This document shows positions 3,737 to 30,950 of a stretch of 64,000 bases of DNA, piece by piece (the stretch's first letter is position 1; every line of letters starts with the position of its first letter). Origin of the DNA: an uncultured Nanoarchaeota archaeon. Lineage in GTDB: Archaea; Nanobdellota; Nanobdellia; Pacearchaeales; GW2011-AR1. Below the pieces are notes generated by a model. It saw only the letters and a program-made list of their open reading frames with translations. It made no database searches and was not told the DNA's origin. Where the stretch lies: NCBI GenBank assembly GCA_963743615.1, contig CAVUQF010000002.1:129697-193696 (forward strand). Direction: 5' to 3'. The position numbers and the translations under genes are program-made.

Positions 3737-3753
3737 TGCTCCTATTCTTGAAG

Positions 3754-4512
3754 TTACGGGAACGTTATAAACTTCCCAAGTACCCCCCCTCCATTTCTTA
3801 AGACAAGATAAGACACGGGAGTAACATAAACTGCATTTTCTGCTAATCCTGTGGTGGTATTAACTGCCAAACTAACCAATTGATATTTAGAGTTATTTAA
3901 TCCTTGTTCACTAGTGTTGAAGGTTGGGTTTCCTGCAATAGAACCAAATTGTATACAATTTGAATTTATTGTAACAGTTCCAGATGAATAAGTTGAATTG
4001 CAATAAAAAACAAACAAGGAAGATGTCCCCGTTGTAGCATTAGCCATAAATTCAAATAAGTTATAAGCTGTGGTGTTAGAAACATTTAGAAATTGTATTT
4101 TTACAGCATTATTATTTGTCAAACCAACTATTGAGTGGGGTGTGTTTTCCATAATTTCTTGATTAATGTTGGTGTCTATTGGATACACATCGTTATCATC
4201 CAAATAAAAACTCCAATTCGTAGACGTATTTGTTCCGGATTCGTTGAAAAATCCAGAATAAGAAGTTCCATTTGAGTAATAATCCACATTGCTTGTCGAG
4301 GTGTTAGTCTTATAATACAAGGACACATTGGAAGCATTTATTGCTCCGGAAGTGGTATCCGTGATATTGTAACTTATGTTTACCCCGTTAGTATAAAGAT
4401 TTGTTGTATTTATATCGGCAGGGATCTGACTGATTATGATAAATAAGGGTGTACAGATAACAAAACTTACCAAAAAAACTATTAGAAAAGCAAGCACCAA
4501 CTTTTTATTCAT
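3754..4512 (-). CDS. Surface glycoprotein, N-terminal part (signal peptide plus N-x-S/T-rich ectodomain)
   Basis: The N-terminal signal/TM is MNKKLVLAFLIVFLVSFVIC and the protein is very rich in N-x-S/T sequons. It ends 17 nt before the next ORF, which is in another frame. A C7 tract lies at 3783-3789. Confidence 0.55.
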   Translation of the reverse strand: MNKKLVLAFLIVFLVSFVICTPLFIIISQIPADINTTNLYTNGVNISYNITDTTSGAINASNVSLYYKTNTSTSNVDYYSNGTSYSGFFNESGTNTSTNWSFYLDDNDVYPIDTNINQEIMENTPHSIVGLTNNNAVKIQFLNVSNTTAYNLFEFMANATTGTSSLFVFYCNSTYSSGTVTINSNCIQFGSIAGNPTFNTSEQGLNNSKYQLVSLAVNTTTGLAENAVYVTPVSYLVLRNGGGVLGKFITFP

Positions 4513-14086: not shown

Positions 14087-14479
14087 TTATTCAAAGCCGC
14101 CGCTTCTTGTTTTTCTCTCCAGAACTTCAACCCTCTGCTGGAGATGATAAATTTGCGTTGAGATCTCTTCCAGCTTTTCCGTAATGTCCATTAATCTTGT
14201 TGCCAATTTTTTTCTTTTTTCATCTGAATTCTCTTCGCTTTCAGAATAAGAAGGCATCTGTGATTCAGAACTCATTGATGCTGCAGCCATCTGACCGAGA
14301 AATCCAAAACTATTCTGAGTTGAAGAAGTTCTAGGAATTATTTCTTTAGAAATGGGAGTAGCTGTCTTCCCCTGAACTTTGTTTACCAACCCCTGAATAT
14401 TTTCCATCTTCTCCTTTTGCCGGTCATACCTTCCACTGAAATCAACTGTCTTCTTCTTGTTTTTGTCAAACAAACCCAT
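14087..14479 (-). CDS. Coiled-coil protein, hypothetical
   Basis: A 130-aa ORF with C-terminal heptad-rich acidic/basic segments. Confidence 0.4.
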   Translation of the reverse strand: MGLFDKNKKKTVDFSGRYDRQKEKMENIQGLVNKVQGKTATPISKEIIPRTSSTQNSFGFLGQMAAASMSSESQMPSYSESEENSDEKRKKLATRLMDITEKLEEISTQIYHLQQRVEVLERKTRSGGFE

Positions 14480-14549: not shown

Positions 14550-16034
14550 TTGTTGATGGCCACGCTTCATCAGGTTATCGGAAAAGTTAATCCCTACCTA
14601 TATGCCAAAAACAGAGATGCTCTTCTCAAAAAATATGTTACTCCAGACAAAATTCCCGCAGATGAGGTAGAACCCAAGCCTCTTACCCAGCACCAATTAG
14701 TCTATGATTCATCTTCAGAAACTTTAGAACCAATTTATTTCTTCCTTCTTGATTTGATGAATGATATGAGGCTGGCACCAGAAAAGATATTTGATAATTT
14801 TACATCTTCTCCCGGAAGTGGGCATTTTGCAGAACTTGGGCAAAGGGCAACGGCAATGCAGCAGCAGGCAACAAAAATGTTGGGGGATATAAATAATGTT
14901 ATGAGAAGTATACTAAATTTAGTTTATGATTTAAAAGAATTCAAGATTAGAATAGAAAGCTATGACAATTTAAAATCACAAAATAAAGACACAAAAGAAG
15001 GTGCATTGCTTTCATTGAAGCAGATATGGATGGATAAAGTGGATATCCTTAAGGGAAATTCAAGTATGAAAGCAATGGCTTTCGGAGGACAAATGGGGTA
15101 TCAGACATTAGTTGATGCATTTTTATTTGTACAAGATGAGAAACAGGCCGATAAAGTTGACCTGAACGATAGAGTAAAGAGGATAGTAAAACAAAGAATT
15201 AACGAATTTAATATCTGGCTTTCTGAATCTGAAAAAGAGCTAAGAAAAAGATATGAAATTGAAAGGAAATATCTTAAGAGTCAGGTTAGTAGTGTGCAAC
15301 TTTATTCTCGTTGGGCAAAGCCATATCTAAAATCAGCGCAGCAGTTGGAAATGAAAGATAATTCAAGATCTGCGGCTCTTGTCAAAGCTTTCAACACAAT
15401 CCTTCTTGAATTAACTCTTCTTGGAAAATCGAAATTGGATATTAAGGGAGCAGTTGAAGAAGGAAAACTTGCGAAAGAGGTCCTTGTGATGGATCAAAAA
15501 AAACAATTGAAAAGGCAATACATTAGTTGTATCATTGTTGAATTTAATTTTAGAGGGATACCTCAGAAAACTTCTCCTTACCAGTCTCATTATGTCTTTG
15601 GAGGTAGAACAGAGGTAACCTTTTCATCTTACACTTTGAATAGTGATGAACTGAAGTTAGTTAATGAGGAATTAACAAAGTCAGATGTTGGGGATGCGAT
15701 GAAACTGATAGAGGATGCGACAACAGGTAGTATTGAAGAATTGCAGAAAGATATTGATGAATTTCTTAAGGAAGAAGACAAAGCCGAGAAAAAGCAGGAA
15801 GAGAAGAAAGATATGTCCAATCCCTTTTTAGCTTTACTTGGATTTTATAATAAGTCTGCTACAAATCCTAGTTCAGGATCAAAATCAAAGAAGGAAGAGT
15901 TGAAAGTTGCAAAACCTGAAGATTATATTGAGAAAAGTTTGCTTAGACCATTGGCTGACGAAAACGCCAAAAAAACCGCCTATGATCTGTTTGATATTTA
16001 CAAGAAGGCGCATGGAATGGCAAGTTATCCTTAA
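14550..16034 (+). CDS. Hypothetical protein (494 aa), first gene of a co-directional cluster
   Basis: A long ORF with no recognisable motif. It is tightly linked to the downstream genes. Confidence 0.5.
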   Translation: MLMATLHQVIGKVNPYLYAKNRDALLKKYVTPDKIPADEVEPKPLTQHQLVYDSSSETLEPIYFFLLDLMNDMRLAPEKIFDNFTSSPGSGHFAELGQRATAMQQQATKMLGDINNVMRSILNLVYDLKEFKIRIESYDNLKSQNKDTKEGALLSLKQIWMDKVDILKGNSSMKAMAFGGQMGYQTLVDAFLFVQDEKQADKVDLNDRVKRIVKQRINEFNIWLSESEKELRKRYEIERKYLKSQVSSVQLYSRWAKPYLKSAQQLEMKDNSRSAALVKAFNTILLELTLLGKSKLDIKGAVEEGKLAKEVLVMDQKKQLKRQYISCIIVEFNFRGIPQKTSPYQSHYVFGGRTEVTFSSYTLNSDELKLVNEELTKSDVGDAMKLIEDATTGSIEELQKDIDEFLKEEDKAEKKQEEKKDMSNPFLALLGFYNKSATNPSSGSKSKKEELKVAKPEDYIEKSLLRPLADENAKKTAYDLFDIYKKAHGMASYP

Positions 16035-16035
16035 C

Positions 16036-16458
16036 ATGAGTAAAGTGAAGAAAAAGAAAAAAGTAGAGATTATCAAAAAGAAATTGAATTTGGAGAATGA
16101 GCTTAAAGAGGTCAAAAGAAACATCACTGAGATAAAACCGAATAAAAAGGATGCTCTCCCTGAATTTATTGATGATGAGTTTGAGGATGACGAAATAGAA
16201 TTTGGAACAGACTTCTCCAGTTTGTTGGATAAGAGTACAAGAACGTCTCCCGGGCTGGAAAATATTCAATTTGGAGATTCCCTTGAAGGAGGAATCATCT
16301 TTGCACCAAGATTTAAAACTACAACTGAATCCGAAGGGAAAGTTTATTTTGGTAACTACGATCCTAAATATGCTGAGAAAAATTATGCTAAGCAGACCCC
16401 CGGAGTTTATGGAGATAAAAAGAGTTCCGATGAAAATTCAAGCAGTAAAAATAAATAG
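16036..16458 (+). CDS. Acidic K/E-rich hypothetical protein
   Basis: The ATG at 16036 lies 2 nt after the upstream stop. The track ORF extends 5' from 15907 in the same frame, overlapping the upstream gene. Confidence 0.4.
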   Translation: MSKVKKKKKVEIIKKKLNLENELKEVKRNITEIKPNKKDALPEFIDDEFEDDEIEFGTDFSSLLDKSTRTSPGLENIQFGDSLEGGIIFAPRFKTTTESEGKVYFGNYDPKYAEKNYAKQTPGVYGDKKSSDENSSSKNK

Positions 16459-16497
16459 ATTAATAAATTAAAATTTGTTCATCAGACAGAGGTAAAA

Positions 16498-18264
16498 ATG
16501 GGTGATTATCATATAGAAGACATTTATCAGGGGGGGTATTCTTCTTTAAATCCCAATTCTGGAATGTATTACAAGGGCGAAAGATCTTATGCTGGAAAAT
16601 TTGGTCTGACTACAGATTTTAGGACGGCAAATATTCTTCAGGAAGTTTCCTCAAAATTGCAATCAGGAGCAAGGCAAATCGAGGTTACCCAGATTCAGCC
16701 GGAAGTTTTTGAATCAATTCCCAATCAGCAATTAAAGGAAGTTGAAAGGTTAAGCAAACTTACAGGGGTTGATGTTTCTCTTCATGGAATTTTAGTTGAG
16801 CCCTCCGGATTCTCAACTCAAGGAGGATATAGTGAATATGCAAGGGAAGAGGCTGAAAGGCAAATGCTCTCAAATGTTATGAGGGGTCATGAACTGAATC
16901 CAAAAGGAAATATTCCTATAACTTTCCATTCTTCGCAGGGATGGCAGAGTCCGGAGTATAGAAAAACAAAGATTGGAGGAAAAGAAGTTGAGCAGGTAGT
17001 TATGATACCTGTTATCAATCAGGAGACAGGGCAGGTTGCAGTAGCTAGACAGGAAAAAAGATATTATCCAGATATGAGTGAGGAGGATTTTGAGAAAGGA
17101 GAAGAAAAAAGCGCACTTGATCAAGTTAGAATTAGAAATTTAACCGAATGGGGTGATTCAATATCAAATCTTGTTGCAATAAAAGAGAGAGCGGACAAAA
17201 TGATAAATGAAACAGAACCTTTGTATGTGGAAATAGAGAAAGAATTGCATTCAGGTACAAACTTTGAGAATTTGAATCCTATGAAGCAGAATGTTTATCA
17301 TAGGTACAAGAATGCAGGTATTGAACTGGGTGAGATCCATAAGCACCTGAATAATATCTTTGAGAGGGGATATAAGTACGGAGATAAGGCGCAGATGGTT
17401 CAGGTTTCTGACAATTTTAAAAAGTCTCTTAAGGAAAATGAAGGAATGGGTCTTTCAGGATCATCAAGAGCAATGGATACTTTGATGGATGATTTAAATA
17501 AAGTTAAGGTACCAGAGTTATACAAACCTCTTGAAGATTTTGCTATTGAAAAAACAGCAACTACTTTTGCGAATGTTGCGTTAAACTCTTATAAAAAGTT
17601 CAAAGATACGGCTCCAATAATTAGTATTGAAAATCCCCCCGTTGGAATGGGCTTATCAAGGGGAGAAGATTTGAGAAAACTTGTTGATTTAGCTAGAACC
17701 AAATTTGTTGAGAATGCAAAAAATTCTGGGATAAACGAGAGAGAGGCAACAGATCAGGCGAATAAATTAATTGGAGTAACTTGGGATGTAGGGCATATAA
17801 ATATGCTGAGAAAATATGGTTATAATGAGCAAGATATTGTCAAAGAATCTGAAAAAATTGCACCTTTACTTAAGCACATACACTTGTCTGATAACTTTGG
17901 ATTTGAACATACTGAGCTTCCAATGGGAATGGGAAATGTTCCAATAAAACAGATAATGGAGAAATTAGGTGATAAAGGATTTGAAGCAAGAAAAGTTATT
18001 GAAGCAGCAGGCTGGTGGCAGCATTTCAAGTCCGCTCCATTTCAAGAAACTCTAGAAGCATTCGGATCTCCTATTTATGGAATGAAAATGGCTCCTTACT
18101 GGAACCAGTCCATAGGAGTGCAAGGATATTTCGGGGGCTATGGGCCGATGCTTCCAACGGTAAACTATGAAACATTTGGTTCTGGATTTTCATCACTTCC
18201 ATCCGAGCTTGGAGGGCAGAGGCAGACCGGAAGAAGCAGGATGTCCGGAAATAGCTTAGAATAA
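16498..18264 (+). CDS. Large hypothetical protein with xylose-isomerase-like (AP endonuclease 2-type) TIM-barrel signature
   Basis: The motifs GVTWDVGHINML and HIHLSDNFGFEHTELPMGMGNVP resemble the metal-binding motifs of sugar-phosphate isomerase/epimerase TIM barrels. The remainder of the protein is not recognised. Confidence 0.45.
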   Translation: MGDYHIEDIYQGGYSSLNPNSGMYYKGERSYAGKFGLTTDFRTANILQEVSSKLQSGARQIEVTQIQPEVFESIPNQQLKEVERLSKLTGVDVSLHGILVEPSGFSTQGGYSEYAREEAERQMLSNVMRGHELNPKGNIPITFHSSQGWQSPEYRKTKIGGKEVEQVVMIPVINQETGQVAVARQEKRYYPDMSEEDFEKGEEKSALDQVRIRNLTEWGDSISNLVAIKERADKMINETEPLYVEIEKELHSGTNFENLNPMKQNVYHRYKNAGIELGEIHKHLNNIFERGYKYGDKAQMVQVSDNFKKSLKENEGMGLSGSSRAMDTLMDDLNKVKVPELYKPLEDFAIEKTATTFANVALNSYKKFKDTAPIISIENPPVGMGLSRGEDLRKLVDLARTKFVENAKNSGINEREATDQANKLIGVTWDVGHINMLRKYGYNEQDIVKESEKIAPLLKHIHLSDNFGFEHTELPMGMGNVPIKQIMEKLGDKGFEARKVIEAAGWWQHFKSAPFQETLEAFGSPIYGMKMAPYWNQSIGVQGYFGGYGPMLPTVNYETFGSGFSSLPSELGGQRQTGRSRMSGNSLE

Positions 18265-18298
18265 ATAAATATATTAAAGTGAAAAGGTTAAATTAAAT

Positions 18299-19102
18299 AT
18301 GGCTAAGAAAACTAAAAAACACTCAGATCCTAAACAGGAAATAATTACCTCTGCAATAAATTTAGGAGTTGGAGAGGTTATAAGGCTTCACCCTCGATTT
18401 GTCAATTCAGGTTATTACATATTAAGCCACATTAATTCTGACAATTTAAGTAAGATGTTTGATGAGCTCTATACATTTGCTCAAAAAAACGAAGTTCCTA
18501 AAGAGAGAATTGGAGAGTATATTACAAAAGGTCTTGCAAATTACATTGCAAGTGGGAAAGCTCTTGATGATTCTGGAAAGGAGCGCATTTTAAGAAATGG
18601 TTTGGAGGAAAAAGCAACCAGAGGGTTATTTGGTAGAGGAAGTGCAAGGAGAGAATTGGAAGGAGATAGATATTTAGATCAGGTAATTGGTGCATGGAAT
18701 AAGATAAATGAACTTGCAAAAGAGGGAGGAAGTGAACTTCCGGAAGAGATGACCAGACCAATGCAGTATCTAAGCAGACTTGGCTTTGCAATCCCTGCCA
18801 CAGAAATCTTAGAAGAAAATGGTTTGATTGACAAGTCTCAATATTCTCAAATAAAAGAGAACATAAGAAAAGGCGCTTACGAAAGTCATAACGAAGGTCT
18901 TAAAAGATTAGAAGAATATTCAAAATATCAAAAAGTTGCAGCTTTAATACTCGGAGTGATTGGGGTTTCTTTACTTCTTGCATCAGGTCTAAATCTGACT
19001 GGAGGAGTTATTGGAACAGCTGTTGGAAAAAATATTTTATTAAGCTTGATTGGAACCGTTTCATTTTTGGCTTCATTGGTTTTGTTGATTAAAAAGAGAT
19101 AA
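18299..19102 (+). CDS. Membrane protein with soluble N-terminal domain and two C-terminal TM helices
   Basis: The C-terminus reads VAALILGVIGVSLLLASGL ... LLSLIGTVSFLASLVLLI. Confidence 0.45.
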   Translation: MAKKTKKHSDPKQEIITSAINLGVGEVIRLHPRFVNSGYYILSHINSDNLSKMFDELYTFAQKNEVPKERIGEYITKGLANYIASGKALDDSGKERILRNGLEEKATRGLFGRGSARRELEGDRYLDQVIGAWNKINELAKEGGSELPEEMTRPMQYLSRLGFAIPATEILEENGLIDKSQYSQIKENIRKGAYESHNEGLKRLEEYSKYQKVAALILGVIGVSLLLASGLNLTGGVIGTAVGKNILLSLIGTVSFLASLVLLIKKR

Positions 19103-19163
19103 TACAAAATATATTTTCGAAAATATTTAAAAACAAGCTATATTTATCATAGTAATACAAAAG

Positions 19164-20108
19164 ATGGCGAAAAAGAGAGCGAAATCTAAAAGATCCGTCA
19201 AGAAAAATAGGAATAATAAGACTGAAAAATTATCTTATAAAGTAAAGTCCAAAAGTTCATCTGCTCCAAAAGATTTTCCTACACTAAACATAAATAAGGA
19301 TTCTGAGATTGCAATGGATTTTGCAACAAAAGCTTATGAGAGATTTAACAAAATAATAAAGTCTGTTGTGCTCTTCGGTTCAACCGCAAAGCAGACTACT
19401 GTACCTGGTTCCGATATTGATATAATAATCATACTAGATGATGTGTCAATAGATTGGGATCAAGAACTTACATCTTGGTATCGGGAAGAGTTGGACAAAT
19501 TGTTGAGGAGAAATCCTTACAAGAAAAATTTGCATATTAATACTGTAAAGTTAAGCACGTGGTGGGAAGATCTGATGAGGGGGGATCCGGTAGTTATTAA
19601 TGTAATCAGATATGGAGAATCTATGATCGATTTCGGAGGATTCTTTGAACCACTAAAATTTTTATTGTTAAGAGGGAAAATAAGATCCACTCCTGAGGCT
19701 GTTTATAGTTGTCTTCAGCGAGCTCCTCAGCATTTCTTAAGAAGTAAGACTGCAGAACTTGGTGCTGTTGAGGGTTTGTACTGGGCGATGGTCGACTCCG
19801 CTCATGCAGCACTTATATCTCGTAATATTCTTCCACCATCACCAGAACATATCCCTCTAAATCTGAAAGAAACATTTGTTAATGAAGGGACCTTAAAAAT
19901 GAAATATGTGACTTGGTATAGAGATCTGTTATTTTTATACAAGAAGATTTCTCACGGGGAATTGGGTGATATGAAAGGCATAGAAATCGATATGTGGCAG
20001 GATAGAACAAATGAATTTATGGGGGTTATGGCAAAATTAGTTGATATGACTATAACCGGAGATAAGAGTATAAACTTAGAAACAAAACCGGAAGAGGAAA
20101 AAGAATAA
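19164..20108 (+). CDS. Pol-beta superfamily nucleotidyltransferase with basic N-terminal tail
   Basis: The NTase motif is LFGSTAKQTTVPGSDIDIIIILDD (hG[GS]x9DhDh). A K/R-rich N-terminus is present. The C-terminal helical domain is homologous to that of 23658..25472. Confidence 0.6.
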   Translation: MAKKRAKSKRSVKKNRNNKTEKLSYKVKSKSSSAPKDFPTLNINKDSEIAMDFATKAYERFNKIIKSVVLFGSTAKQTTVPGSDIDIIIILDDVSIDWDQELTSWYREELDKLLRRNPYKKNLHINTVKLSTWWEDLMRGDPVVINVIRYGESMIDFGGFFEPLKFLLLRGKIRSTPEAVYSCLQRAPQHFLRSKTAELGAVEGLYWAMVDSAHAALISRNILPPSPEHIPLNLKETFVNEGTLKMKYVTWYRDLLFLYKKISHGELGDMKGIEIDMWQDRTNEFMGVMAKLVDMTITGDKSINLETKPEEEKE

Positions 20109-22552: not shown

Positions 22553-23674
22553 TTATCTTTCTAAAACAATAATACTTCTTCCAATAATTGAATCTTTCCT
22601 GAACTCATTTATCGGGCCCTCTACAATTTTCAATTTTGTAGCGGAACTGATTTTTTTGAAATCACAAGAGATCTGGCCTCTTCCTGTGAAGATAAGGGGG
22701 GCAGTAAATACTATCTTTCCGTTTACATAACTCTTAAGATTTTTCAGCGTTTTTATTATAAGTTCCTCGAAATTATTTTTTATTTTGTTTGCTTCTTCTT
22801 TCGAAGGATTGTTTTTCTGCAATTTTCCAAGTTCTGGCTCTGTAGCAACCCCATTAACCTTAGAAATTCTTGCAACAGAAGAATCTTCATTTAATATCTT
22901 GTATTGATCTCTTTCAAAGCCAAACCATCCAAGATTTTTTCTTGCATCTTCAACAGCTTTTTTATCTTTATCAATTCCAACGGCCTTTATTTTTTGGAGC
23001 AAAGCCTCCTCTAGTATCACTCCAATCCCACAAAAAGGATCAAGGATAACTTCTTCATCTTTTACTTCTGATAAATTTATTAAAATCTTTGCAAGTCTAG
23101 GAGATATAGAAAGCTCATTCCTTCTTATCGGTTTTTTCATGTCTCTTTCTTCAATTTGTTCGTAATCAATTTTTTCAATTATTCTTCCAAAATTATCTTC
23201 AAAAATAAAATATTGCTCATCAATATTTTTTGATGAAACGTTGGGAACAAACTCTCCATCCTGTAATTTTATATTTCCTGTCAGTTTCTTTTCAGTAGCT
23301 TTTAATCCCTCTTTTTTTAATTTTTGCTTCAAATAAAATAGAACATCGCTGAAGTCTTTTCCATTGAAATTATATAGAACATAATTTAATTTGTTATCTT
23401 CCGAATAATAAATTATTTTCTTTTCTAGCTCATCAAAAATATTTTTTCCAGTCCCTGAGGCAAGAACCTCTCCTATTGAAATAACTCCTCCAAATTTTTC
23501 AACTGTTCCTCTTTCAAATTTTTTATTTGTTTCTACTAATAGCCCATTATCGAAAAGTCCAATCTGCTTAAAGTCAAGATTATTTTTCCTGAAAAAAGCC
23601 TTTACTTCCGCAATAGATAGTTCTATATTTCTTCCGAGAATAAAAAGATATTTCATTTTAGAACAAGATTTCAA
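22553..23674 (-). CDS. THUMP-domain tRNA (guanine-N2) methyltransferase (Trm11/TrmG10-like)
   Basis: An N-terminal THUMP-like region is followed by the SAM-binding motif DPFCGIGVILEEA. The true start may be the second Met at 23656. Confidence 0.65.
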   Translation of the reverse strand: MKSCSKMKYLFILGRNIELSIAEVKAFFRKNNLDFKQIGLFDNGLLVETNKKFERGTVEKFGGVISIGEVLASGTGKNIFDELEKKIIYYSEDNKLNYVLYNFNGKDFSDVLFYLKQKLKKEGLKATEKKLTGNIKLQDGEFVPNVSSKNIDEQYFIFEDNFGRIIEKIDYEQIEERDMKKPIRRNELSISPRLAKILINLSEVKDEEVILDPFCGIGVILEEALLQKIKAVGIDKDKKAVEDARKNLGWFGFERDQYKILNEDSSVARISKVNGVATEPELGKLQKNNPSKEEANKIKNNFEELIIKTLKNLKSYVNGKIVFTAPLIFTGRGQISCDFKKISSATKLKIVEGPINEFRKDSIIGRSIIVLER

Positions 23675-25472
23675 AATCGCCTAATTCTTTCTTTAGTAAG
23701 GCAAAAGCTTCCGAAGAAATATTCGCAGCTTTCTTGTATTTCTGCTGTTCCGCAGCCTTAGAAACCTCTTCCATATTTGATTCTGATATCTTGTCAGTAA
23801 TTTTCTTTATTTTTCCTTCCTCAAACAAAAATAATTCTTTGTCATAAACCAATACTTCAGCAGTTTTATCCTTGTCTTTTTCTCGGTATTTAATTGTCAT
23901 TCTTCTCTTGTCGAGTTCGGCCAAATCCTTTCTCTGAGAAAATTCAATAAGACTGTTAATTAAAGTGGTTGCTTCTCTCCTTATGTTGTCTATTGCATGA
24001 AGGCTAGATTTTTCTTTGCCAAATTCTTTTTTTGCCGCAATTATATTATTTATAATCTTAAGATGTTGGGAACTGAATTTCCCTCCCCCGACCATCTTCT
24101 GAAATTCTTCTATTATTGCAGGATTGGAAGCCTTACCAGTTACCGACTTGAGTAATTCAAAAACTTGCTGATAAATTTCTTCAATAGTTTTTTTCTGTGC
24201 CCTTTTTTCAATCTGTTCTCTTAGTTCTTTCAATCTTTTTAAGTACTCTTCAGTGCCGCTGATGAACTCATCCAAAGCGGCTCCTTTTATTTCCTTGAGC
24301 TTTTCATGCTCATACTCTTTATATTTTTCAATGACCTTTTCCAGTATTGTAACATATTTCGCTTCAAGCATTTTTTCCTTATCGACGAAGATTTCTCTCA
24401 TTTCCTTGACCGTTTGCTTTGGTGTTGGGGGAGGCAATCCGTAAAGCATAAGCAATGCCTGACTCGGAGTTATAACTCCCCAATAAATCTCATGAACAAG
24501 TATATCTAATAGTGCCCCTTTTGCTCTCTGCACGGTCTTATCTCCCATAGACATAAACATATCAATTGCTTCTGGAGAAGGTTTTAGCTTTCCCATCTTC
24601 AATAGAATTTTCCAAGGCATGAATGTTCCTCTATCATAAAGTGGAACTCCGTCTCTTATAAAAGTAAAAATGACTGGTTCTGCATCTTTAACTTTCTCCC
24701 AAAACTCAGTAAGAAGGTAAACCTGAACATTCAGGATATTCTCTTTGACTCCTGCAATGGCATAAGCCTCAGAGATGTACTGATAAATAATTCCTCTCAA
24801 TCTTTCTTTTAATTCCAATCTTGGCATTCTTTTTACATCCGTATCATTGATAATTATGAAGACATCAACATCTGAAGTCTTTGAAGCTTCACCCCTTACA
24901 ATGCTTCCAGCAATTACATAGCTGACAACGTATCTCTCAAACTTTTGAAGAACAAGCGTTTTATGAACTTCAGCTACTCTTAATGATTTCAAGAATCCTT
25001 TGTCATAGAGGGGGAAAGACATGGCAATTGCGCTGAGAATCTCAAACTTGCTATCCATTCCATATTCCCAAACATCTCCATTTGTTTTTACATAAACCCA
25101 GATATCTTGTTTTTCCTTTTCAATCTCTTTTACAACTTCTTCTTTTATCTTGGTTATCTCTTTAACCTTATCATCCGGAATAATAATACACAAATGAATT
25201 TTTTTTAGCAATTTTTCTAACTGATCTTTTGGAGTGTCTTCACCAAGTTCTTCTTCAATAACTATCTTAAGAGCTTGCGATGGAAGAACTCCAATTGCTT
25301 TTACAAATGGATATTTCTTTGTTATAAACAACTTAAGTTTATTCAGTTCTTTTTTTGTTTTATCGATATTCTTCTGTGTCTCTGTAGGACTGGGTAGATT
25401 AGTCTTATTGGAAGATGAGTAGTTATTGTTAAGATTCATCTCAGGAATATCTTTGCTGCTTTCTTCGGGCAT
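23658..25472 (-). CDS. Large nucleotidyltransferase-domain protein (paralog of 19164..20108)
   Basis: The central NTase motif is IAGSIVRGEASKTSDVDVFIIIND. The following helical domain aligns with the 19164 protein (TEFWEKV..EPVIFTFIRDGVPLYD..LPPPTPKQ versus STWWEDL..DPVVINVIRYGESMID..LPPSPEHI). Confidence 0.55.
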   Translation of the reverse strand: MPEESSKDIPEMNLNNNYSSSNKTNLPSPTETQKNIDKTKKELNKLKLFITKKYPFVKAIGVLPSQALKIVIEEELGEDTPKDQLEKLLKKIHLCIIIPDDKVKEITKIKEEVVKEIEKEKQDIWVYVKTNGDVWEYGMDSKFEILSAIAMSFPLYDKGFLKSLRVAEVHKTLVLQKFERYVVSYVIAGSIVRGEASKTSDVDVFIIINDTDVKRMPRLELKERLRGIIYQYISEAYAIAGVKENILNVQVYLLTEFWEKVKDAEPVIFTFIRDGVPLYDRGTFMPWKILLKMGKLKPSPEAIDMFMSMGDKTVQRAKGALLDILVHEIYWGVITPSQALLMLYGLPPPTPKQTVKEMREIFVDKEKMLEAKYVTILEKVIEKYKEYEHEKLKEIKGAALDEFISGTEEYLKRLKELREQIEKRAQKKTIEEIYQQVFELLKSVTGKASNPAIIEEFQKMVGGGKFSSQHLKIINNIIAAKKEFGKEKSSLHAIDNIRREATTLINSLIEFSQRKDLAELDKRRMTIKYREKDKDKTAEVLVYDKELFLFEEGKIKKITDKISESNMEEVSKAAEQQKYKKAANISSEAFALLKKELGDFEILF

Positions 25473-27930: not shown

Positions 27931-29151
27931 ATGAAGAAGCCATCTCGCGCTAAAGGAATTATAGCCTCCTTAGGTTTAATAGTTGGAGGATCATTGCACG
28001 GACAAAGTTCTGCTGTTCCCTTACCCGCTCCAATATATAGAACAAATGACGGAGTTTTTGCTACGCCTGAAAAACTTCCTTTTTCTAAAGATAGAGAATA
28101 TTCACTAAGATCTCTTTTGGGTGATGGAAAGGATGCTAGCTTTTATGCTATGGATCCTGTGGTTTTAATCAAGGGTAAAATAAACTTCTTGGAAGGAAAT
28201 AGTCCTGAAGTGAAAAAACATTATACTGATGATGCAAGACAGCGTGAGATAAGAGAGTGCGAATCTCTTTTAACGCAAGTAGGAAATGAAAAAAGAGATC
28301 CGGGATATGCCCAATCTTTGAAAAATCTTGATGATGCAGTAAAGGATGGAATAATCACTCCCAAAGAGATGAAAGGCCTTGAGCAAAATGTTACTTACGG
28401 GATTGGCGAACGAGGCAAGAATTTTGATGCTCCAATGCTTGTATATTTTCCCTCACTAGAGCCAAAGCCGGACATTGAAAGTATTGTAGCGCCAAAAAAA
28501 ATAATTTATGATGAGGCAAAACAACCTCTACCCCTGCCAAAAATTCCAAAGGATCACGGAAAATCTCCACGATTAACGACTGAAGATGGCCCCGCACTGA
28601 TTTTTGGGGCAGAGACAGGAATTCCTTTTCAATATGGAGCAACAATAGGGGGAAAATGGAATAATCTAGCACTAACTTTAACTTTAGATAGAATTCCAGA
28701 TGAGAATATTATTAATATAAACAAGAGTCTAGGTGGAAATATTTCTTATATAGCCAGTGAGGATTATACTAATATTACCTCTATTACAGGCGCTGTTACT
28801 GGATATATCCCAATTACAAAAAGCCTTTCTCTGTCTGTTGGGCCATCATTTGGGGCAAAGATGTATACAAGAAAAGATACAGCCGCAATTGCGGACGTTA
28901 CAGATCCAAGCAATCCAGTATATATTAATCAGGGCAACGGCCCAATAACATCTTCTTATTTGCAAGAGCAGTGGGTATTAGGAGGAAATGTAGGTATGAA
29001 CCTTAGGGTAGGCCCATTTGGAATTAATCCTTATGTTGGATACAGGAGGGTATACGGAGAGGGTTTAACTGATCTGTTAAACGGTTCGGATGAATTTGTC
29101 GGAGGAGCTAACTTAATATTCTATCTTGGTAAAAGAAAGAGTGAAAAATGA
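27931..29151 (+). CDS. Secreted protein with bacterial-type Sec signal peptide and beta-barrel-like C-terminal region
   Basis: The signal peptide is MKKPSRAKGIIASLGLIVGGSLHG. The C-terminal roughly 180 aa show an alternating hydrophobic pattern (LALTLTLD, ISYIAS, LSLSVG, NLRVG, VGYRRVY). Local GC is about 43% by eye. Confidence 0.45.
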   Translation: MKKPSRAKGIIASLGLIVGGSLHGQSSAVPLPAPIYRTNDGVFATPEKLPFSKDREYSLRSLLGDGKDASFYAMDPVVLIKGKINFLEGNSPEVKKHYTDDARQREIRECESLLTQVGNEKRDPGYAQSLKNLDDAVKDGIITPKEMKGLEQNVTYGIGERGKNFDAPMLVYFPSLEPKPDIESIVAPKKIIYDEAKQPLPLPKIPKDHGKSPRLTTEDGPALIFGAETGIPFQYGATIGGKWNNLALTLTLDRIPDENIININKSLGGNISYIASEDYTNITSITGAVTGYIPITKSLSLSVGPSFGAKMYTRKDTAAIADVTDPSNPVYINQGNGPITSSYLQEQWVLGGNVGMNLRVGPFGINPYVGYRRVYGEGLTDLLNGSDEFVGGANLIFYLGKRKSEK

Positions 29152-30950
29152 ATTTTCTGAAATTTGCCTATGCGTTTACACTGGGAATAATTCTCATCGC
29201 TACGATTAGTGCAACTATTGTTACCGGAGGATTGTGGATTAATAATCAGCAAAGTATGAGCATAACCAGCGGGCAGAATGCAAACTTTAGTGCATATTTT
29301 GGGACAATTCCCTGGAATTCAATGACTGTAACTATAAAATTGTATGATGCAAATCATCACTTAATTTATACTTTTGAAAATAACAGAGCAATAAATTCGA
29401 ATACTTTTTCTAATACTTACTTGATAACTCCTGCAATCTATAAAAATGTCGGAGCTTACACTGTGGTTATTCAGGGAACGGATAATGATGGGACACAGTC
29501 ATACACACTAAGTCTTATTGTAAACCCCGTTCCAGATTCAATACCGGTAATATCTTCTTCTCCAATAACACAGGTTAATGAAGGAGCTGCATATTTATAT
29601 CAGGTAGTTGCATCTGATGCTGACGGAGATACTCTTGCTTATTCGCTTTCACAATCTCCATCATGGCTTTCAATAAATCCTTCAACAGGGCTTATATCAG
29701 GAACAGCACCATCAGTTACAGCAAACACAAATTACGCTGTTTCAGTAAATGTTTCAGACGGAGTTAACATTGTAACACAAAGCTACACTCTAACAGTAGA
29801 TTACATTGCTCCAGCAAATATTCCTCCGGTAATATCTTCTTCTCCAATAACACAGGTTAATGAAGGAGCTGCATATTTATATCAGGTAGTTGCATCTGAT
29901 GCTGACGGAGATACTCTTGCTTATTCGCTTTCACAATCTCCATCATGGCTTTCAATAAATCCTTCAACAGGGCTTATATCAGGAACAGCACCATCAGTTA
30001 CAGCAAACACAAATTACGCTGTTTCAGTAAATGTTTCAGACGGAGTTAACATTGTAACACAAAGCTACACTCTAACAGTAGATTACATTGCTCCGATTAT
30101 ATCTGATACAATTCCTCCAGTAGTTAATTTGATTTCTCCATCAAATAATTTTGATTCAAATAAGTCAATGCAGACATTTAATGCTAGTGCAACAGACAAT
30201 GTGGCCTTGTCAAATCTTACTTTATATATTTGGAACTCAACTGGCTTAGTATCTTCAAATACAAAATCAGTTACAGGAATTTCCAACTTAACTTCCTGGA
30301 TATTAAGTTTTGCTTCTGACGGGAATTATATCTGGAATGTTCTTGGTATGGATGCAGCAGGAAATGCCAATTGGAGCCAGCAGGGAAATTATACTCTTTT
30401 GATTGATACTACCTCTCCTCAGGTTCAGTTTGTTAACCCAACTCCAAGTGAAAATTCTGTTTTAACGTCTACAACCATCTCTGCAAATCTCACAGCCTTA
30501 GATCTTCTTAGCGGGCTGGACACTCTTAATATTTATCTTTATAACTCAACAAGCATAATAGGCAATGTAAGCAAGGATTCATCTCCATTTGCTTTCAATT
30601 TCATTAATCTTCAACCAGGGGTTTATTATCTTAATGCTACAGCAATGGACAACTTTGGAAATATGAATTCAACTCAGACACTAACTATTACTCTCCAGAG
30701 TTCTTCTCTCTCTCCTGAGACTCCGATTTCCTATTCAGCAAGCCCATACACTTATACAGATGTATACGGCCCCCAATATCCCCAGCAGCAGATAAATAAT
30801 AACGCTCCCTCTGAATCATCAACTGGAGAGGTATTACCTCAAACGCAGTCCTCTCAAGGATATGTTGTTGTATTAATAATTGGAACAATACTTATTGCAC
30901 TCGTTCTGATAGCAACAATTGTAATAGCTGCAAGAAGATTAAAGAGATGA
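29148..30950 (+). CDS. Surface protein with tandem He_PIG (putative Ig/dystroglycan-type cadherin-like) domains and C-terminal TM anchor
   Basis: An N-terminal signal/TM is followed by two identical He_PIG domains carrying the motif SLSQSPSWLSINPSTGLISGTAP. Further Ig-like modules follow, then an S/T/P/Q-rich stalk and a C-terminal TM (VVVLIIGTILIALVLIATIVIA) with an RRLKR tail. Confidence 0.6.
   Translation: MNFLKFAYAFTLGIILIATISATIVTGGLWINNQQSMSITSGQNANFSAYFGTIPWNSMTVTIKLYDANHHLIYTFENNRAINSNTFSNTYLITPAIYKNVGAYTVVIQGTDNDGTQSYTLSLIVNPVPDSIPVISSSPITQVNEGAAYLYQVVASDADGDTLAYSLSQSPSWLSINPSTGLISGTAPSVTANTNYAVSVNVSDGVNIVTQSYTLTVDYIAPANIPPVISSSPITQVNEGAAYLYQVVASDADGDTLAYSLSQSPSWLSINPSTGLISGTAPSVTANTNYAVSVNVSDGVNIVTQSYTLTVDYIAPIISDTIPPVVNLISPSNNFDSNKSMQTFNASATDNVALSNLTLYIWNSTGLVSSNTKSVTGISNLTSWILSFASDGNYIWNVLGMDAAGNANWSQQGNYTLLIDTTSPQVQFVNPTPSENSVLTSTTISANLTALDLLSGLDTLNIYLYNSTSIIGNVSKDSSPFAFNFINLQPGVYYLNATAMDNFGNMNSTQTLTITLQSSSLSPETPISYSASPYTYTDVYGPQYPQQQINNNAPSESSTGEVLPQTQSSQGYVVVLIIGTILIALVLIATIVIAARRLKR
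29544..30094 (+). repeat. Perfect tandem duplication inside a surface-protein gene
   Basis: A 269-nt unit is repeated twice with a 282-nt period (94 aa) and is 100% identical by direct comparison. Copy 1 is 29544-29812 and copy 2 is 29826-30094. Confidence 0.9.

What the first reader, a model, noticed from the sequence alone, without database searches (positions are those of the whole stretch)
14550..20108. Uncharacterised five-gene operon ending in a Pol-beta nucleotidyltransferase and a 2-TM protein
Five co-directional genes have intergenic gaps of 2-60 nt. They are a 494-aa unknown, an acidic protein, a 588-aa protein with sugar-isomerase-like TIM-barrel metal motifs, a protein with two C-terminal TM helices, and an NTase with the GS..DIDI motif and a basic tail. 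An NTase adjacent to a small 2-TM protein is reminiscent of nucleotide-second-messenger defence modules, but nothing else matches a known system. The module could be novel.
Basis: inference. Interest (0 to 1): 0.55.

Follow-up and report, generated by a model that had tools for sequence, protein, structure and literature searches.

The report
Conserved Nanoarchaeota gene cluster, not defence
The five genes are real, but they are not a mobile anti-virus module: three of them (an orphan coiled-coil protein, an endonuclease-IV-like three-metal enzyme with a large insertion, and a kanamycin-nucleotidyltransferase-like enzyme) form a vertically inherited cluster of still unknown function found across the tiny-celled Nanoarchaeota.

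Summary
There are five co-directional genes at 14556-20108, with gaps of 1-61 nt, on a low-GC archaeal chromosome.

The defence reading does not hold.
- g1 has thousands of full-length homologues, all from Nanoarchaeota/Woese-/Pacearchaeota MAGs. It occurs in 317 species-level genomes and in no viral contig.
- The locus sits in the same chromosomal place, between GluRS and ribosomal protein L10e, in dozens of genomes.
- The order g1→g3→g5 survives in a deep clade where the proteins are only 24-38% identical and the flanks have changed.
- The 2-TM gene (g4) is present in only about 11 of 75 loci.

What the parts are:
- g5 is a KNTase-like NTase joined to a HEPN-like helical domain, with an intact active site. 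It is not a CD-NTase.
- g3 is a PF01261 TIM barrel whose nearest solved relative is MJ1311. All nine endonuclease-IV metal-ligand positions are conserved, and a ~200-aa insertion lies between β4 and β5.
- g1 has no Pfam match and no fold match.

My best guess is a housekeeping nucleic-acid end-processing or repair module (about 0.4). The function remains open. Interest is moderate.

The parts
14087..14479 (-). cc130: a 130-aa protein with an N-terminal 'MGLF' motif and a C-terminal coiled coil, transcribed divergently from g1. It is a conserved neighbour and a possible partner of g1.
   Evidence: tblastn finds it upstream of g1 in 76 of 80 close loci. A similar 'MGLF...coiled coil' ORF sits upstream and divergent in 18 distant loci. 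It has no family match.
14556..16034 (+). g1: a 492-aa orphan protein, with two long helices (residues 93-139 and 205-266), a five-stranded sheet, a disordered acidic/Lys linker and a conserved C-terminal helix. It is probably a non-enzymatic scaffold.
   Evidence: - It has 2631+ homologues, and the top 120 are 58-88% identical.
- The family has 712 representatives at the 50%-identity cluster level.
- It occurs in 317 species-level genomes.
- The AF2 model has mean pLDDT 70.
- There is no significant Foldseek hit in the PDB (best E 0.15) or in BFVD.
- No Pfam family recurs among 23 diverse members.
- Residues conserved across the deep clades are mostly W/Y/P/G/L.
16036..16458 (+). g2: a 140-aa, probably disordered protein with a Lys-rich N-terminus, an acidic core and a Tyr/Gly-rich C-terminus. 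It evolves fast and sits directly upstream of g3.
   Evidence: Composition is. Sequence similarity is detectable in only 5 of 80 loci. A positional 140-230 aa ORF, often acidic, precedes g3 in most loci and stays next to g3 when other genes are inserted after g1. g2-like ORFs occur in about 22 distant loci. It is absent where g1 and g3 abut (L094, L123, L143).
16498..18264 (+). g3: a 588-aa PF01261 TIM-barrel protein of the endonuclease-IV/MJ1311 type. All nine three-metal ligand positions are occupied: H96, H144, E378, D430, H433, H462, H471, E473 and E502.
   Evidence: - Pfam PF01261, E 1.3e-10.
- The nearest solved relative is MJ1311 (3wqo), E 1e-7.
- MAFFT alignment with E. coli Nfo places 7-8 of the 9 ligands on invariant g3 residues.
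- All nine positions are invariant in 32 homologues that are only 24% identical. Positions 471 and 473 are D and H there, as in Nfo D229/H231.
- There is an SD-like AGAGGT 5 nt before the ATG.
16945..17622 (+). The g3 insertion: about 200-225 aa (residues ~150-375), mostly helical by weak sequence matches, placed between barrel strands β4 (H144) and β5 (E378).
   Evidence: Pfam covers only residues 392-503. Removing residues 171-359 leaves a sequence that aligns to the 285-aa Nfo. Weak PDB profile hits in this region are to helical bundles. No structure was predicted for g3.
18299..19102 (+). g4: a 267-aa basic protein anchored by a C-terminal two-helix membrane hairpin (nt ~18935-19093). It is an accessory, not a core, component.
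   Evidence: The 2-TM hairpin type occurs in about 11 of 75 loci that have both g3 and g5. The nearest relative has an 88-aa version that keeps only the basic N-terminus and the same hairpin. It has no family match.
19164..20108 (+). g5: a 314-aa protein with three parts: a Lys/Arg-rich N-terminal tail (residues 1-45), a minimal Pol-β-type NTase (~46-156) and a HEPN-like helical bundle (~177-298). This is the kanamycin-nucleotidyltransferase-like architecture.
   Evidence: - Pfam PF01909 and PF18765.
- JGI names homologues 'nucleotidyltransferase/UPF0332'.
- The AF2 model has mean pLDDT 68.
- Foldseek top hits are ANT(4')/KNTase at E 3e-4. The C-terminal domain matches the HEPN protein AF_0298 with TMt 0.82.
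- G72, S73, D84, D86, D141, D156 and H214 are invariant in the deep clade; R186 and H190 are not.
23658..25472 (-). NT604: a 604-aa paralogue of g5. Its residues 172-417 correspond to the g5 NTase plus helical module. It is a conserved neighbour 3.5 kb downstream.
   Evidence: BLASTP of g5 against NT604 gives 28% identity over 253 aa, E 1e-27. It is present in the same relative position in many of the 80 close loci. Pfam finds PF01909 at residues 174-228.

Best explanation
Tier 1 (well supported, about 0.9). This is a vertically inherited, lineage-wide housekeeping cluster of Nanoarchaeota (the Woese-/Pacearchaeota-type DPANN archaea). It is not a mobile or defence element.
- The conserved core is g1 + g3 + g5.
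- A small coiled-coil gene lies divergently upstream, and a disordered g2-like gene usually lies just before g3.
- The 2-TM gene g4 is an optional accessory.

Tier 2 (inferred; the 0.4 applies here). The cluster is a nucleic-acid end-processing or repair module.
- g3 uses an endonuclease-IV-type three-metal centre to hydrolyse a phosphoester. Candidate substrates are an abasic site, a 3'-blocking group, or a 3'/2',3'-cyclic phosphate on DNA or RNA.
- g5 is a dimer-type KNTase-like nucleotidyltransferase with a nucleic-acid-binding basic tail. It transfers a nucleotide to the hydroxyl that g3 exposes.
- g1 carries no catalytic-looking conserved residues. It would act as a coiled-coil scaffold that holds the enzymes, possibly through the conserved aromatic tails of g3.

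Shown: gene structure, homology, fold class of g5, conservation of the ligand positions, and synteny. Inferred: the substrates, the coupling of the two enzymes, and the scaffold role.
For: Conservation and synteny:
- g1, g3 and g5 each have 1700-3900+ homologues at 48-88% identity, all from Nano-/Woese-/Pacearchaeota MAGs.
- g1 occurs in 317 species-level genomes.
- Among close loci, g3 follows g1 within 6 kb in 45 of 47, and g5 follows g3 within 2.6 kb in 43 of 43.
- In a deep clade (g1 24%, g3 24%, g5 38% identical) the figures are 22 of 27 and 19 of 22. There the L10e and NT604 flanks are mostly gone, so the triad is held together beyond ordinary synteny.
- No relatives are found in viral contigs.

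g3:
- It matches PF01261, and its nearest solved relative is MJ1311. PMC2770678 lists MJ1311 as the predicted M. jannaschii Nfo homologue.
- All nine Nfo ligand positions are conserved across both clades. The third-site pair is D/H in one clade and H/E in the other. Ordinary sugar isomerases and epimerases of this superfamily use only four ligands (established knowledge).

g5:
- It has a KNTase-like fold, an intact GS/DxD/D active site and an N-terminal tail of pI 11.

Context:
- Translation and RNA genes surround the locus: GluRS, HisRS, tRNA-His, L10e, L35Ae and an RNA-methylase-type MTase.
- An HhH-GPD base-excision glycosylase lies about 1.8 kb upstream in 10 distant loci.
Against: - There is no biochemical or interaction evidence.
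- g3 does not reach any Nfo model in NCBIfam, and hhalign against E. coli Nfo is insignificant.
- From my memory of Uechi et al. 2014 (Acta Cryst F, not retrievable here), MJ1311 keeps the nine residues but lacks the DNA-binding groove of Endo IV. A non-DNA substrate is therefore quite possible.
- KNTase-like enzymes classically act on small-molecule hydroxyls, and MntA-type enzymes act on protein tyrosines, not on nucleic acids.
- Unrelated genes (an ABC transporter, on either strand) are inserted between g1 and g2-g3, or between g3 and g5, in several genomes. A few genomes have g1 without g3/g5 nearby. So co-transcription is not universal.
Confidence: 0.4

Rival explanations
1. The genes are independent housekeeping genes that share only inherited gene order. 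Each of g1, g2-g3 and g5 has its own role, and their adjacency reflects slow genome rearrangement in this lineage rather than a common function.
For: - Genes that are clearly not in the operon and lie on the opposite strand (GluRS, cc130, L10e, NT604) are conserved in place over the same 80 genomes. Synteny here is therefore not specific to operons.
- Unrelated genes are inserted inside the cluster in several loci.
- g5 has a TATA-like AT-rich stretch of its own upstream.
- Five to seven loci have g1 without g3/g5 downstream.
Against: - In the deep clade the outer flanks are largely lost, yet g1→g3→g5 stays co-directional and close: 22 of 27 and 19 of 22.
- g3→g5 is adjacent in 43 of 43 close loci, with a median gap of 354 nt, and 122 nt in the distant clade.
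- g1 and g3 abut or overlap in some genomes (L094, L123).
Confidence: 0.25
2. The cluster is a nucleotidylation writer/eraser pair. g5, like MntA or KNTase, adds an NMP to a hydroxyl of a protein or a small molecule. Candidate protein targets are the conserved Tyr-rich tails of g3 or g2. The three-metal phosphodiesterase g3 removes the NMP. g1 would be the regulated target or a scaffold.
For: - The g5 fold and its best family hits are MntA antitoxin (NCBIfam E 2e-6) and aminoglycoside NTases. Both transfer NMP to non-nucleic-acid hydroxyls.
- g3 and g2 carry conserved Tyr/Gly-rich segments, such as DIYQGGYSS, SPIY and GYFGGYG. The SPxY and SYFG motifs persist in the deep clade.
- MJ1311 reportedly lacks a DNA groove (from memory).
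Against: - No example is known of an Endo-IV-type barrel acting as a de-AMPylase.
- The tails could simply be docking peptides.
- The basic N-terminal tail of g5 fits nucleic acid better.
Confidence: 0.15
3. The cluster makes a sugar or envelope precursor. g3 acts as a sugar (phosphate) isomerase or epimerase, as annotated. g5 nucleotidylates the sugar. g4 ties the pathway to the membrane.
For: - Sources annotate g3 homologues as 'sugar phosphate isomerase/epimerase'.
- PDB sequence hits include ketose 3-epimerases at E 0.004.
- KNTase-type enzymes adenylylate sugar hydroxyls.
- g4 is membrane-anchored.
Against: - The full nine-ligand three-metal set is not a feature of the sugar isomerases and epimerases of PF01261.
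- g4 is missing from most loci.
- These organisms have minimal metabolism, yet the genes are conserved at a level typical of information-processing proteins.
- Sugar-nucleotide synthesis normally uses a different NTase fold (established knowledge).
Confidence: 0.1
4. The cluster is an anti-virus defence or toxin-antitoxin module. This could be a CBASS-like NTase with a 2-TM effector, or a fused MNT-HEPN toxin-antitoxin.
For: - The NTase core gives weak hits to PADLOC candidate systems (PDC-S09, E 3e-9) and to CBASS cyclases (E 1e-3 to 0.04).
- A 2-TM protein is adjacent in this genome.
- The MNT plus HEPN domain combination is typical of type VII TA systems.
Against: - The hits cover only about 45-60 residues of the generic NTase core and lie far below the family cut-offs.
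- Fold search prefers KNTase over CD-NTases.
- The HEPN-like domain lacks a conserved Rx4-6H motif. R186 and H190 form an Rx3H and are not conserved.
- g4 is absent from most loci.
- The gene is single-copy, syntenic and 65-85% identical across species.
- It is not found in viral contigs, and the locus shows no GC anomaly.
Confidence: 0.03

Closest known systems
Endonuclease IV (Nfo) and the MJ1311-type proteins of the xylose-isomerase-like TIM-barrel superfamily (PF01261)
   Same: g3 has the PF01261 barrel. Its best solved relative is MJ1311 (E 1e-7). Conserved metal-competent residues occupy all nine positions that hold the three zinc ions in E. coli Nfo.
   Different: - g3 is twice the size, at 588 aa against about 285.
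- A ~200-aa insertion lies between β4 and β5.
- It has conserved aromatic/Gly-rich N- and C-terminal extensions.
- It does not reach any Nfo family model.
- In the window's clade the third-site ligands are His/Glu instead of Asp/His.
- No Nfo-type DNA-recognition residue is evident, for example the Tyr72 equivalent.
- Activity is untested.
Kanamycin nucleotidyltransferase ANT(4') and related two-domain NTases (AadA, ANT(9), LinB)
   Same: g5 has the same two-domain plan, a minimal Pol-β NTase followed by a helical HEPN-related domain. These are its best Foldseek matches (E 3e-4 to 1e-3, TM 0.4-0.49). The GS...DxD active site is intact.
   Different: - Sequence identity is only about 11%.
- The NCBIfam ANT(4')-I model scores 21 bits against a cut-off of 350.
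- g5 has an extra 45-residue basic tail.
- It is a single-copy, syntenic core gene of an archaeal lineage rather than a resistance gene.
- Its substrate is unknown.
MNT-HEPN (MntA/HepT) type VII toxin-antitoxin modules and archaeal MNT/HEPN pairs (UPF0332)
   Same: The domain families are the same. The NTase core hits MntA (E 2e-6), and the C-terminal domain superposes on the HEPN protein AF_0298 (TMt 0.82). JGI labels homologues NTase/UPF0332.
   Different: The domains are fused in one chain. There is no conserved Rx4-6H RNase motif. The gene is not mobile or variable but universally conserved and syntenic.
CBASS / CD-NTase plus transmembrane effector defence systems
   Same: Only the generic Pol-β NTase core is shared, together with the adjacency of a small TM protein in this one genome.
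   Different: - g5 does not have the CD-NTase fold (CdnE E 0.08, TM 0.22).
- No SMODS or CD-NTase family hit passes its threshold.
- The TM gene is missing in most orthologous loci.
- The locus has no island context.
Bacterial/archaeal PolX (a Pol-β-type polymerase fused to a PHP three-metal phosphoesterase domain)
   Same: This is an analogy in function only. It pairs a Pol-β-superfamily nucleotidyltransferase with a barrel-type three-metal phosphoesterase for DNA end cleaning and filling (established knowledge).
   Different: The two activities are on separate proteins. The barrel is Endo-IV-type, not PHP. g5 lacks the finger, thumb and 8-kDa domains of a templated polymerase. No homology is claimed.
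'Module 98' lineage-specific protein families of Pacearchaeota + Woesearchaeota (Castelle et al. 2021, PMC8204110)
   Same: That study catalogued 51 families widespread in these two groups and mostly absent elsewhere, most of unknown function. g1 has that distribution.
   Different: I could not check whether g1, g3 or g5 are among the 51 families. That paper gives no gene-cluster, structural or mechanistic analysis of them.

Membership tests
CD-NTase (cGAS/DncV-like, CBASS cyclase) | Sequence match to CD-NTase/SMODS family models above the family threshold | tested here: not met
   NCBIfam CBASS_cyclase_b gives E 0.037 and 13.6 bits against a cut-off of 200, over 35 residues. PADLOC cyclase models give E 1e-3 to 0.02 on the NTase core only. 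There is no SMODS hit in Pfam.
CD-NTase (cGAS/DncV-like, CBASS cyclase) | CD-NTase fold (NTase core plus the characteristic C-terminal helical lobe) as the best structural match | tested here: not met
   Foldseek against the PDB gives CdnE/CdnC at E 0.08-0.34, prob 0.2-0.4, TM 0.22-0.24. KNTase scores E 3e-4 with prob 1.0. The model pLDDT is only 68, so this is indicative rather than final.
CD-NTase (cGAS/DncV-like, CBASS cyclase) | Conserved pairing with an effector gene, in variable/island context | tested here: not met
   The 2-TM gene is present in about 11 of 75 loci. The flanks are conserved, and there are no relatives in viral contigs.
Endonuclease IV (Nfo) | PF01261 TIM barrel | tested here: met
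   PF01261 at E 1.3e-10 over residues 392-503. The N-terminal half is assigned by alignment only.
Endonuclease IV (Nfo) | Nine residues forming the trinuclear metal site (E. coli H69, H109, E145, D179, H182, H216, D229, H231, E261) | tested here: met
   MAFFT with E. coli Nfo aligns 7 positions in all three modes. H69 aligns to H96 in one mode, and E261 to E502 by inspection. The g3 positions are invariant in 41 close and 32 distant homologues. Positions 471 and 473 are H and E in the close clade and D and H in the distant clade. Metal binding itself was not tested.
Endonuclease IV (Nfo) | Match to the Nfo family model / significant profile similarity to Nfo | tested here: not met
   There is no Nfo hit in NCBIfam. 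hhalign of A3 against E. coli Nfo gives probability 0.3%. hmmsearch of the trimmed profile against Nfo is insignificant.
Endonuclease IV (Nfo) | AP-endonuclease / 3'-diesterase activity on DNA, and a DNA-binding groove with flipping residues | not testable with these tools
No Tyr72/Leu73-type motif is seen after H96 (sequence HG[PI][LV]).
Ketose 3-epimerase / sugar isomerase branch of PF01261 | Four-ligand single-metal site (Glu, Asp, His, Glu) without the extra His/Asp ligands | tested here: not met
   g3 conserves five further ligand-type residues at the Nfo-specific positions: H96, H144, H433, and 471/473. The definition of the epimerase site is from established knowledge.
Kanamycin nucleotidyltransferase ANT(4')-I | Two-domain fold: minimal NTase plus a C-terminal helical domain | tested here: met
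   Foldseek matches 6nmk, 6p06, 6un8 and 1kny at E 3e-4 to 9e-4, TMt 0.45-0.49.
Kanamycin nucleotidyltransferase ANT(4')-I | Family-level sequence membership | tested here: not met
   NCBIfam ANT_4p_I scores 21.3 bits against a cut-off of 350. The PDB sequence search finds nothing at E≤0.1.
MNT-HEPN toxin-antitoxin (type VII) | HEPN RNase motif Rx4-6H | tested here: not met
   The only candidate, R186-x3-H190, has the wrong spacing. In 26 distant homologues it is replaced by M/L/K and S/T.
MNT-HEPN toxin-antitoxin (type VII) | MntA family model above threshold | tested here: not met
   NF047752 scores 27.5 bits against a cut-off of 60.
Archaeal class I CCA-adding enzyme | Match to the cca_archaeal model / head-neck-body-tail architecture | tested here: not met
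   TIGR03671 gives E 0.017 and 13.9 bits against a cut-off of 281 for g5. g5 is 314 aa with a KNTase-like C-terminal domain. The tRNA-His gene in the window does not encode CCA, so a CCA-adding activity must exist somewhere in the genome.

The most novel reading that the evidence does not exclude
g1, g3 and g5, together with the small coiled-coil and disordered partners, form a previously undescribed multiprotein machine specific to Nanoarchaeota. It would be built on an orphan-fold coiled-coil scaffold that couples an Endo-IV-derived three-metal phosphoesterase, remodelled by a 200-aa insertion, to a KNTase-like nucleotidyltransferase. It could be a new kind of DNA/RNA end-repair or nucleotidylation cycle that these minimal-genome archaea cannot do without.
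Probability: 0.3. Interest if true: 0.7.

Novelty: new variant of a known kind. Interest (0 to 1): 0.45.

Why it matters
Woese- and Pacearchaeota-type Nanoarchaeota are abundant, uncultivated archaea with tiny genomes, and much of their conserved gene set has no assigned function.

This cluster is among the most strongly conserved of those unknowns. g5 is about 70% identical, and g1 about 60%, across many species-level genomes. It combines two recognisable chemistries, a three-metal phosphoesterase and a nucleotidyl transferase, with an orphan protein.

That makes it a concrete, testable entry point into lineage-specific core biology of DPANN archaea. It could also reveal a new use of the endonuclease-IV active site.

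For the scan itself, the value is negative. An NTase next to a small TM protein is not enough to call a defence module, and checks of conservation and synteny settle the matter quickly.

Tried and rejected
- PADLOC, PHROGs and NCBIfam scans of all five proteins returned only sub-threshold generic NTase hits.
- Foldseek of the g1 model found nothing usable. The PDB gave a best E of 0.15 with TM about 0.1. BFVD gave levivirus maturation proteins at E 1.6e-3 with TM 0.09 and prob 0.28, which I treat as noise.
- A PDB profile search with g1 gave only coiled-coil noise.
- Pfam scans of 23 diverse g1 relatives found no recurring family.
- The N-terminal extension of a 688-aa g1 homologue was tested as a possible informative fusion and matched no family.
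- hhalign and hmmsearch of g3 against a single E. coli Nfo sequence were insignificant and aligned only one helix. I therefore relied on ligand-position conservation instead.
- A PIP-box reading of the g3 tail (QETLEAFG) was rejected because the Q is not kept in the deep clade.
- A HEPN RNase motif in g5 was rejected.
- Literature searches for DPANN plus endonuclease IV, and for the MJ1311 structure paper, found nothing retrievable.
- The first metagenome scan, with a very diverse g1 alignment, failed for lack of a conserved stretch and was repeated with a subgroup.
- Taxon names for distant g1 relatives were mostly missing. The few named ones are all Nanoarchaeota/Nanoarchaeia.

Full report
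**1. What is in the sequence**

The window is a low-GC (30-40%) archaeal chromosome segment. It carries:
- an intron-containing tRNA (40783-40940);
- tRNA genes without encoded CCA;
- GluRS, ribosomal protein L10e, a thermosome subunit, STT3/AglB, CTP synthase and a DEAD-box helicase.

Between 14550 and 20108 there are five + strand ORFs.

| Gene | Coordinates | Length | Note |
|---|---|---|---|
| g1 | 14556-16034 | 492 aa | ATG start, as in a 100% identical database entry |
| g2 | 16036-16458 | 140 aa | |
| g3 | 16498-18264 | 588 aa | |
| g4 | 18299-19102 | 267 aa | |
| g5 | 19164-20108 | 314 aa | |

The gaps are 1, 39, 34 and 61 nt. g3 has an SD-like AGAGGT before its ATG, which fits internal initiation on a polycistronic RNA. 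g5 has TATA-like AT-rich boxes of its own upstream. Co-transcription is plausible but not shown.

- g2 has only an acidic core.
- The basic tail of g5 is N-terminal.

**2. Not a variable island and not a defence module**

Conservation:
- g1 has at least 2631 database homologues. The best 120 are full-length, 58-88% identical, and every named one is a hypothetical protein of Nanoarchaeota, Nanoarchaeia, Pacearchaeota or Woesearchaeota MAGs.
- g3 (1731+ homologues, 48-78% identical) and g5 (3932+, 68-85%) behave the same way.
- A scan of one genome per species found g1 in 317 genomes.

Synteny in the 80 best loci:

| Feature | Loci with a tblastn match (of 80) |
|---|---|
| Small coiled-coil gene upstream | 76 |
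| GluRS | 64 |
| g3 | 63 |
| g5 | 50 |
| L10e | 41 |
| 604-aa NTase (NT604) | 50 (some of these matches fall on g5 itself) |

- Most of the misses are at contig ends.
- Where enough sequence is present, g3 follows g1 within 6 kb in 45 of 47 loci, and g5 follows g3 within 2.6 kb in 43 of 43.
- GC content is flat across the locus.
- No g1 relative exists in 2.9 million viral contigs.
- PADLOC, PHROGs and NCBIfam give nothing beyond sub-threshold hits to the generic NTase core.

**3. The conserved unit**

The 2-TM gene g4, which motivated the defence idea, is present in only about 11 of 75 loci that have both g3 and g5. In most loci g3 and g5 are less than 200 nt apart. In the nearest relative (85% identical g1), g4 is an 88-aa protein that keeps just the basic N-terminus and the same TM hairpin.

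g2 is barely recognisable by sequence (5 of 80 loci). A 140-230 aa ORF, often acidic, nevertheless sits directly before g3 in most loci. It stays with g3 when other genes are inserted after g1.

An ABC transporter or other genes, on either strand, interrupt g1|g2-g3 or g3|g5 in several genomes.

To separate functional linkage from mere inherited gene order, I fetched a deep clade whose g1, g3 and g5 are only 24%, 24% and 38% identical to the window's.
- There the L10e and NT604 flanks are mostly gone, and LspA is the common upstream neighbour.
- Even so, g1→g3 holds in 22 of 27 loci and g3→g5 in 19 of 22 (three apparent exceptions were overlapping genes).
- An 'MGLF…coiled-coil' small gene is again found divergently upstream, in 18 loci.

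The core is therefore g1 + g3 + g5, with g3-g5 the tightest pair. cc130 and g2 are frequent companions, and g4 is an accessory.

**4. g5**

- Pfam sees only the minimal NTase (PF01909/PF18765).
- JGI labels homologues 'nucleotidyltransferase/UPF0332'.
- The AF2 model (pLDDT 68) shows a disordered basic tail (residues 1-45), an NTase α/β domain and a helical bundle.
- Foldseek against the PDB ranks kanamycin nucleotidyltransferase ANT(4') first (E 3e-4 to 9e-4, TMt 0.45-0.49). AadA, ANT(9) and HalB follow. The C-terminal bundle superposes on the HEPN protein AF_0298 (TMt 0.82).
- CD-NTases appear only at E≥0.08 with TM about 0.22.
- G72, S73, D84, D86, D141, D156 and H214 are invariant even in the deep clade. 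The only HEPN-like motif (R186x3H190) has the wrong spacing and is not conserved.

g5 is thus an active KNTase-architecture nucleotidyltransferase. It is not a cyclase and not a HEPN RNase.

It has a paralogue 3.5 kb away. NT604 residues 172-417 are 28% identical to g5 (E 1e-27).

**5. g3**

- Pfam PF01261 covers only residues 392-503.
- The only significant solved relative is M. jannaschii MJ1311 (3wqo; E 6e-7 with the single sequence, 1e-7 with the profile).
- Kiyonari et al. list MJ1311 as the predicted Nfo homologue of that organism (PMC2770678).
- From memory (Uechi et al. 2014, Acta Cryst F; not retrievable here), its structure paper reports that MJ1311 keeps the nine Endo IV zinc ligands but lacks the DNA groove.

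I took E. coli nfo from MG1655 and aligned it with g3 after cutting out residues 171-359. The ligand positions correspond as follows.

| E. coli Nfo ligand | g3 residue | Support |
|---|---|---|
| H69 | H96 | one MAFFT mode |
| H109 | H144 | all three MAFFT modes |
| E145 | E378 | all three |
| D179 | D430 | all three |
| H182 | H433 | all three |
| H216 | H462 | all three |
| D229 | H471 | all three |
| H231 | E473 | all three |
| E261 | E502 | by inspection |

The HMMER alignment to MJ1311 independently aligns the region from D430/H433 to E502.

The strongest point comes from 32 deep-clade g3 proteins (24% identity). H96, H144, E378, D430, H433, H462 and E502 are each 32 of 32. Positions 471 and 473 are Asp and His in 31 of 32, which is exactly the Nfo D229/H231 pair. 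The window's clade has His and Glu there instead. Two ligand-competent solutions at the same two positions argue that this is a real third metal site.

Sugar isomerases and epimerases of the superfamily use four ligands (established knowledge). I therefore read g3 as an Endo-IV/MJ1311-type three-metal phosphoesterase.

It differs from Nfo in four ways:
- a ~200-aa insertion between β4 and β5;
- conserved aromatic/Gly-rich extensions, namely DIYQGGYSS at the N-terminus and SPIY…GYFGGYG at the C-terminus, with SPxY and SYFG kept in the deep clade;
- no match to Nfo family models;
- no evident DNA-flipping residues.

**6. g1**

- No Pfam family matches g1, either in the window protein or consistently in 23 diverse relatives.
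- No PDB sequence hit was found.
- The family has 712 representatives at the 50%-identity cluster level. The few named ones are all Nanoarchaeota.
- The AF2 model (pLDDT 70) shows a five-stranded sheet with flanking helices. Two very long helices (residues 93-139 and 205-266) project from it with a small helical tip. A disordered acidic/Lys linker and a conserved C-terminal helix follow.
- Residues conserved across both clades are mostly W, Y, P, G and L, with no catalytic-looking motif.

I take g1 to be a structural or scaffold protein of unknown fold class. This is an inference.

**7. How it most likely works**

Shown:
- a lineage-wide, vertically inherited triad;
- a KNTase-like NTase with an intact active site;
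- a TIM barrel with a conserved Endo-IV-type ligand set.

Inferred (about 0.4): a nucleic-acid end-processing or repair module, in which g3 removes a phosphoester lesion or blocking group, g5 adds a nucleotide, and g1 organises them.

In favour:
- the chemistry of the two enzymes;
- the basic tail of g5;
- the information-processing neighbourhood, with tRNA synthetases, r-proteins and an RNA-methylase-type MTase;
- an HhH-GPD glycosylase near the cluster in 10 deep-clade loci;
- the fact that minimal genomes keep mostly information-processing genes.

Against:
- MJ1311-type proteins may not bind DNA;
- KNTase/MntA-type enzymes normally modify small molecules or proteins;
- there are no interaction data.

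Rivals:
- independent genes kept together only by inherited order (0.25);
- a nucleotidylation writer/eraser pair acting on protein tyrosines or a small molecule (0.15);
- sugar or envelope metabolism (0.1);
- defence or TA (0.03).

**8. Comparison with known systems and novelty**

The parts are divergent variants of known superfamilies (Endo IV/MJ1311-type PF01261; KNTase/MNT-HEPN) plus an orphan protein. The combination matches no described system.

Castelle et al. 2021 (PMC8204110) catalogued a module of 51 families shared by Pace- and Woesearchaeota, mostly of unknown function. g1 has that distribution, but no analysis of this cluster exists in the literature I could search.

I rate it 'new variant of a known kind', with a 0.3 chance that it is a truly new machine.

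Interest is 0.45. It is a solid, testable lead into DPANN core biology and an unusual Endo-IV derivative, but it carries no surprise that overturns current views.

Noticed in passing
window 23658-25472 (-): A 604-aa protein (NT604) holds a g5-like NTase plus helical module at residues 172-417 (28% identical to g5, E 1e-27), flanked by unknown N- and C-terminal regions of 170 and 190 aa. It is conserved in the same neighbourhood in many genomes. It has no PDB sequence hit and no cca_archaeal match. The window's tRNA genes lack encoded CCA, so NT604 or g5 could be tested as an unconventional CCA-adding or tailing enzyme.
   Followed up: partly
g3 residues 471/473 (window 17908-17916); loci L081-L160: The third metal-site pair differs between clades. 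It is His/Glu in the window's clade and Asp/His, as in E. coli Nfo D229/H231, in a deep clade (31 of 32). This looks like a paired ligand swap at the same two positions.
   Followed up: yes
window 40783-40940 (+): Rfam finds a tRNA spanning 158 nt, so it contains an intron. ARAGORN in bacterial mode missed it. This fits an archaeal origin.
   Followed up: no
window 35019-36179 (+): A tyrosine recombinase (Phage_integrase, E 1e-14) lies among ORFs without family matches at about 33-40 kb, not far from the intron-containing tRNA. This may be an integrated element.
   Followed up: no
window 29148-30950 (+) and 51718-54438 (-): The first is a 600-aa protein with He_PIG, cadherin and Big_13 Ig-like domains, probably a surface protein. 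The second is a 906-aa STT3/AglB oligosaccharyltransferase.
   Followed up: no
L081-L160, about 0.6 kb upstream of g1 (e.g. L114 1590-1973 -): In the deep clade a signal peptidase II (LspA, PF01252, E 2e-24) lies upstream of g1 on the opposite strand in 42 loci. Lipoprotein signal peptidase is a bacterial-type enzyme.
   Followed up: partly
L126 8717-9367 (-) and 9 other distant loci: An HhH-GPD base-excision glycosylase (PF00730, E 7e-16) with a C-terminal Cys cluster lies about 1.8 kb upstream of g1 in 10 deep-clade loci. This is weak circumstantial support for a DNA-repair context.
   Followed up: partly
L001 (DATJPO010000019.1), L076 (JAHYJW010000002.1), L080 (MWBV01000011.1): Contigs carrying this archaeal cluster together with archaeal GluRS/L10e are deposited as 'Omnitrophota bacterium', 'Patescibacteria group bacterium' and 'Diapherotrites archaeon'. 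These are probably mis-binned or mislabelled MAG contigs.
   Followed up: no
window 16498-16600 and 18025-18264 (g3 termini); 16336-16458 (g2 C-terminus): These are strongly conserved Tyr/Gly/Phe-rich, apparently unstructured segments (DIYQGGYSS; SPIYxMKMAPYWNQ…GYFGGYG…NYETFG; g2 YFGNYDPKY). Low-complexity regions are rarely this conserved. They may be docking peptides or modification sites.
   Followed up: partly
window 14087-14479 (-): cc130 begins with MGLFDK, like the membrane-binding N-terminal helix of PspA/Vipp1-type proteins (resemblance recalled from memory). It ends in a coiled coil. It is conserved divergently upstream of g1 in both clades, and no family matches it.
   Followed up: partly
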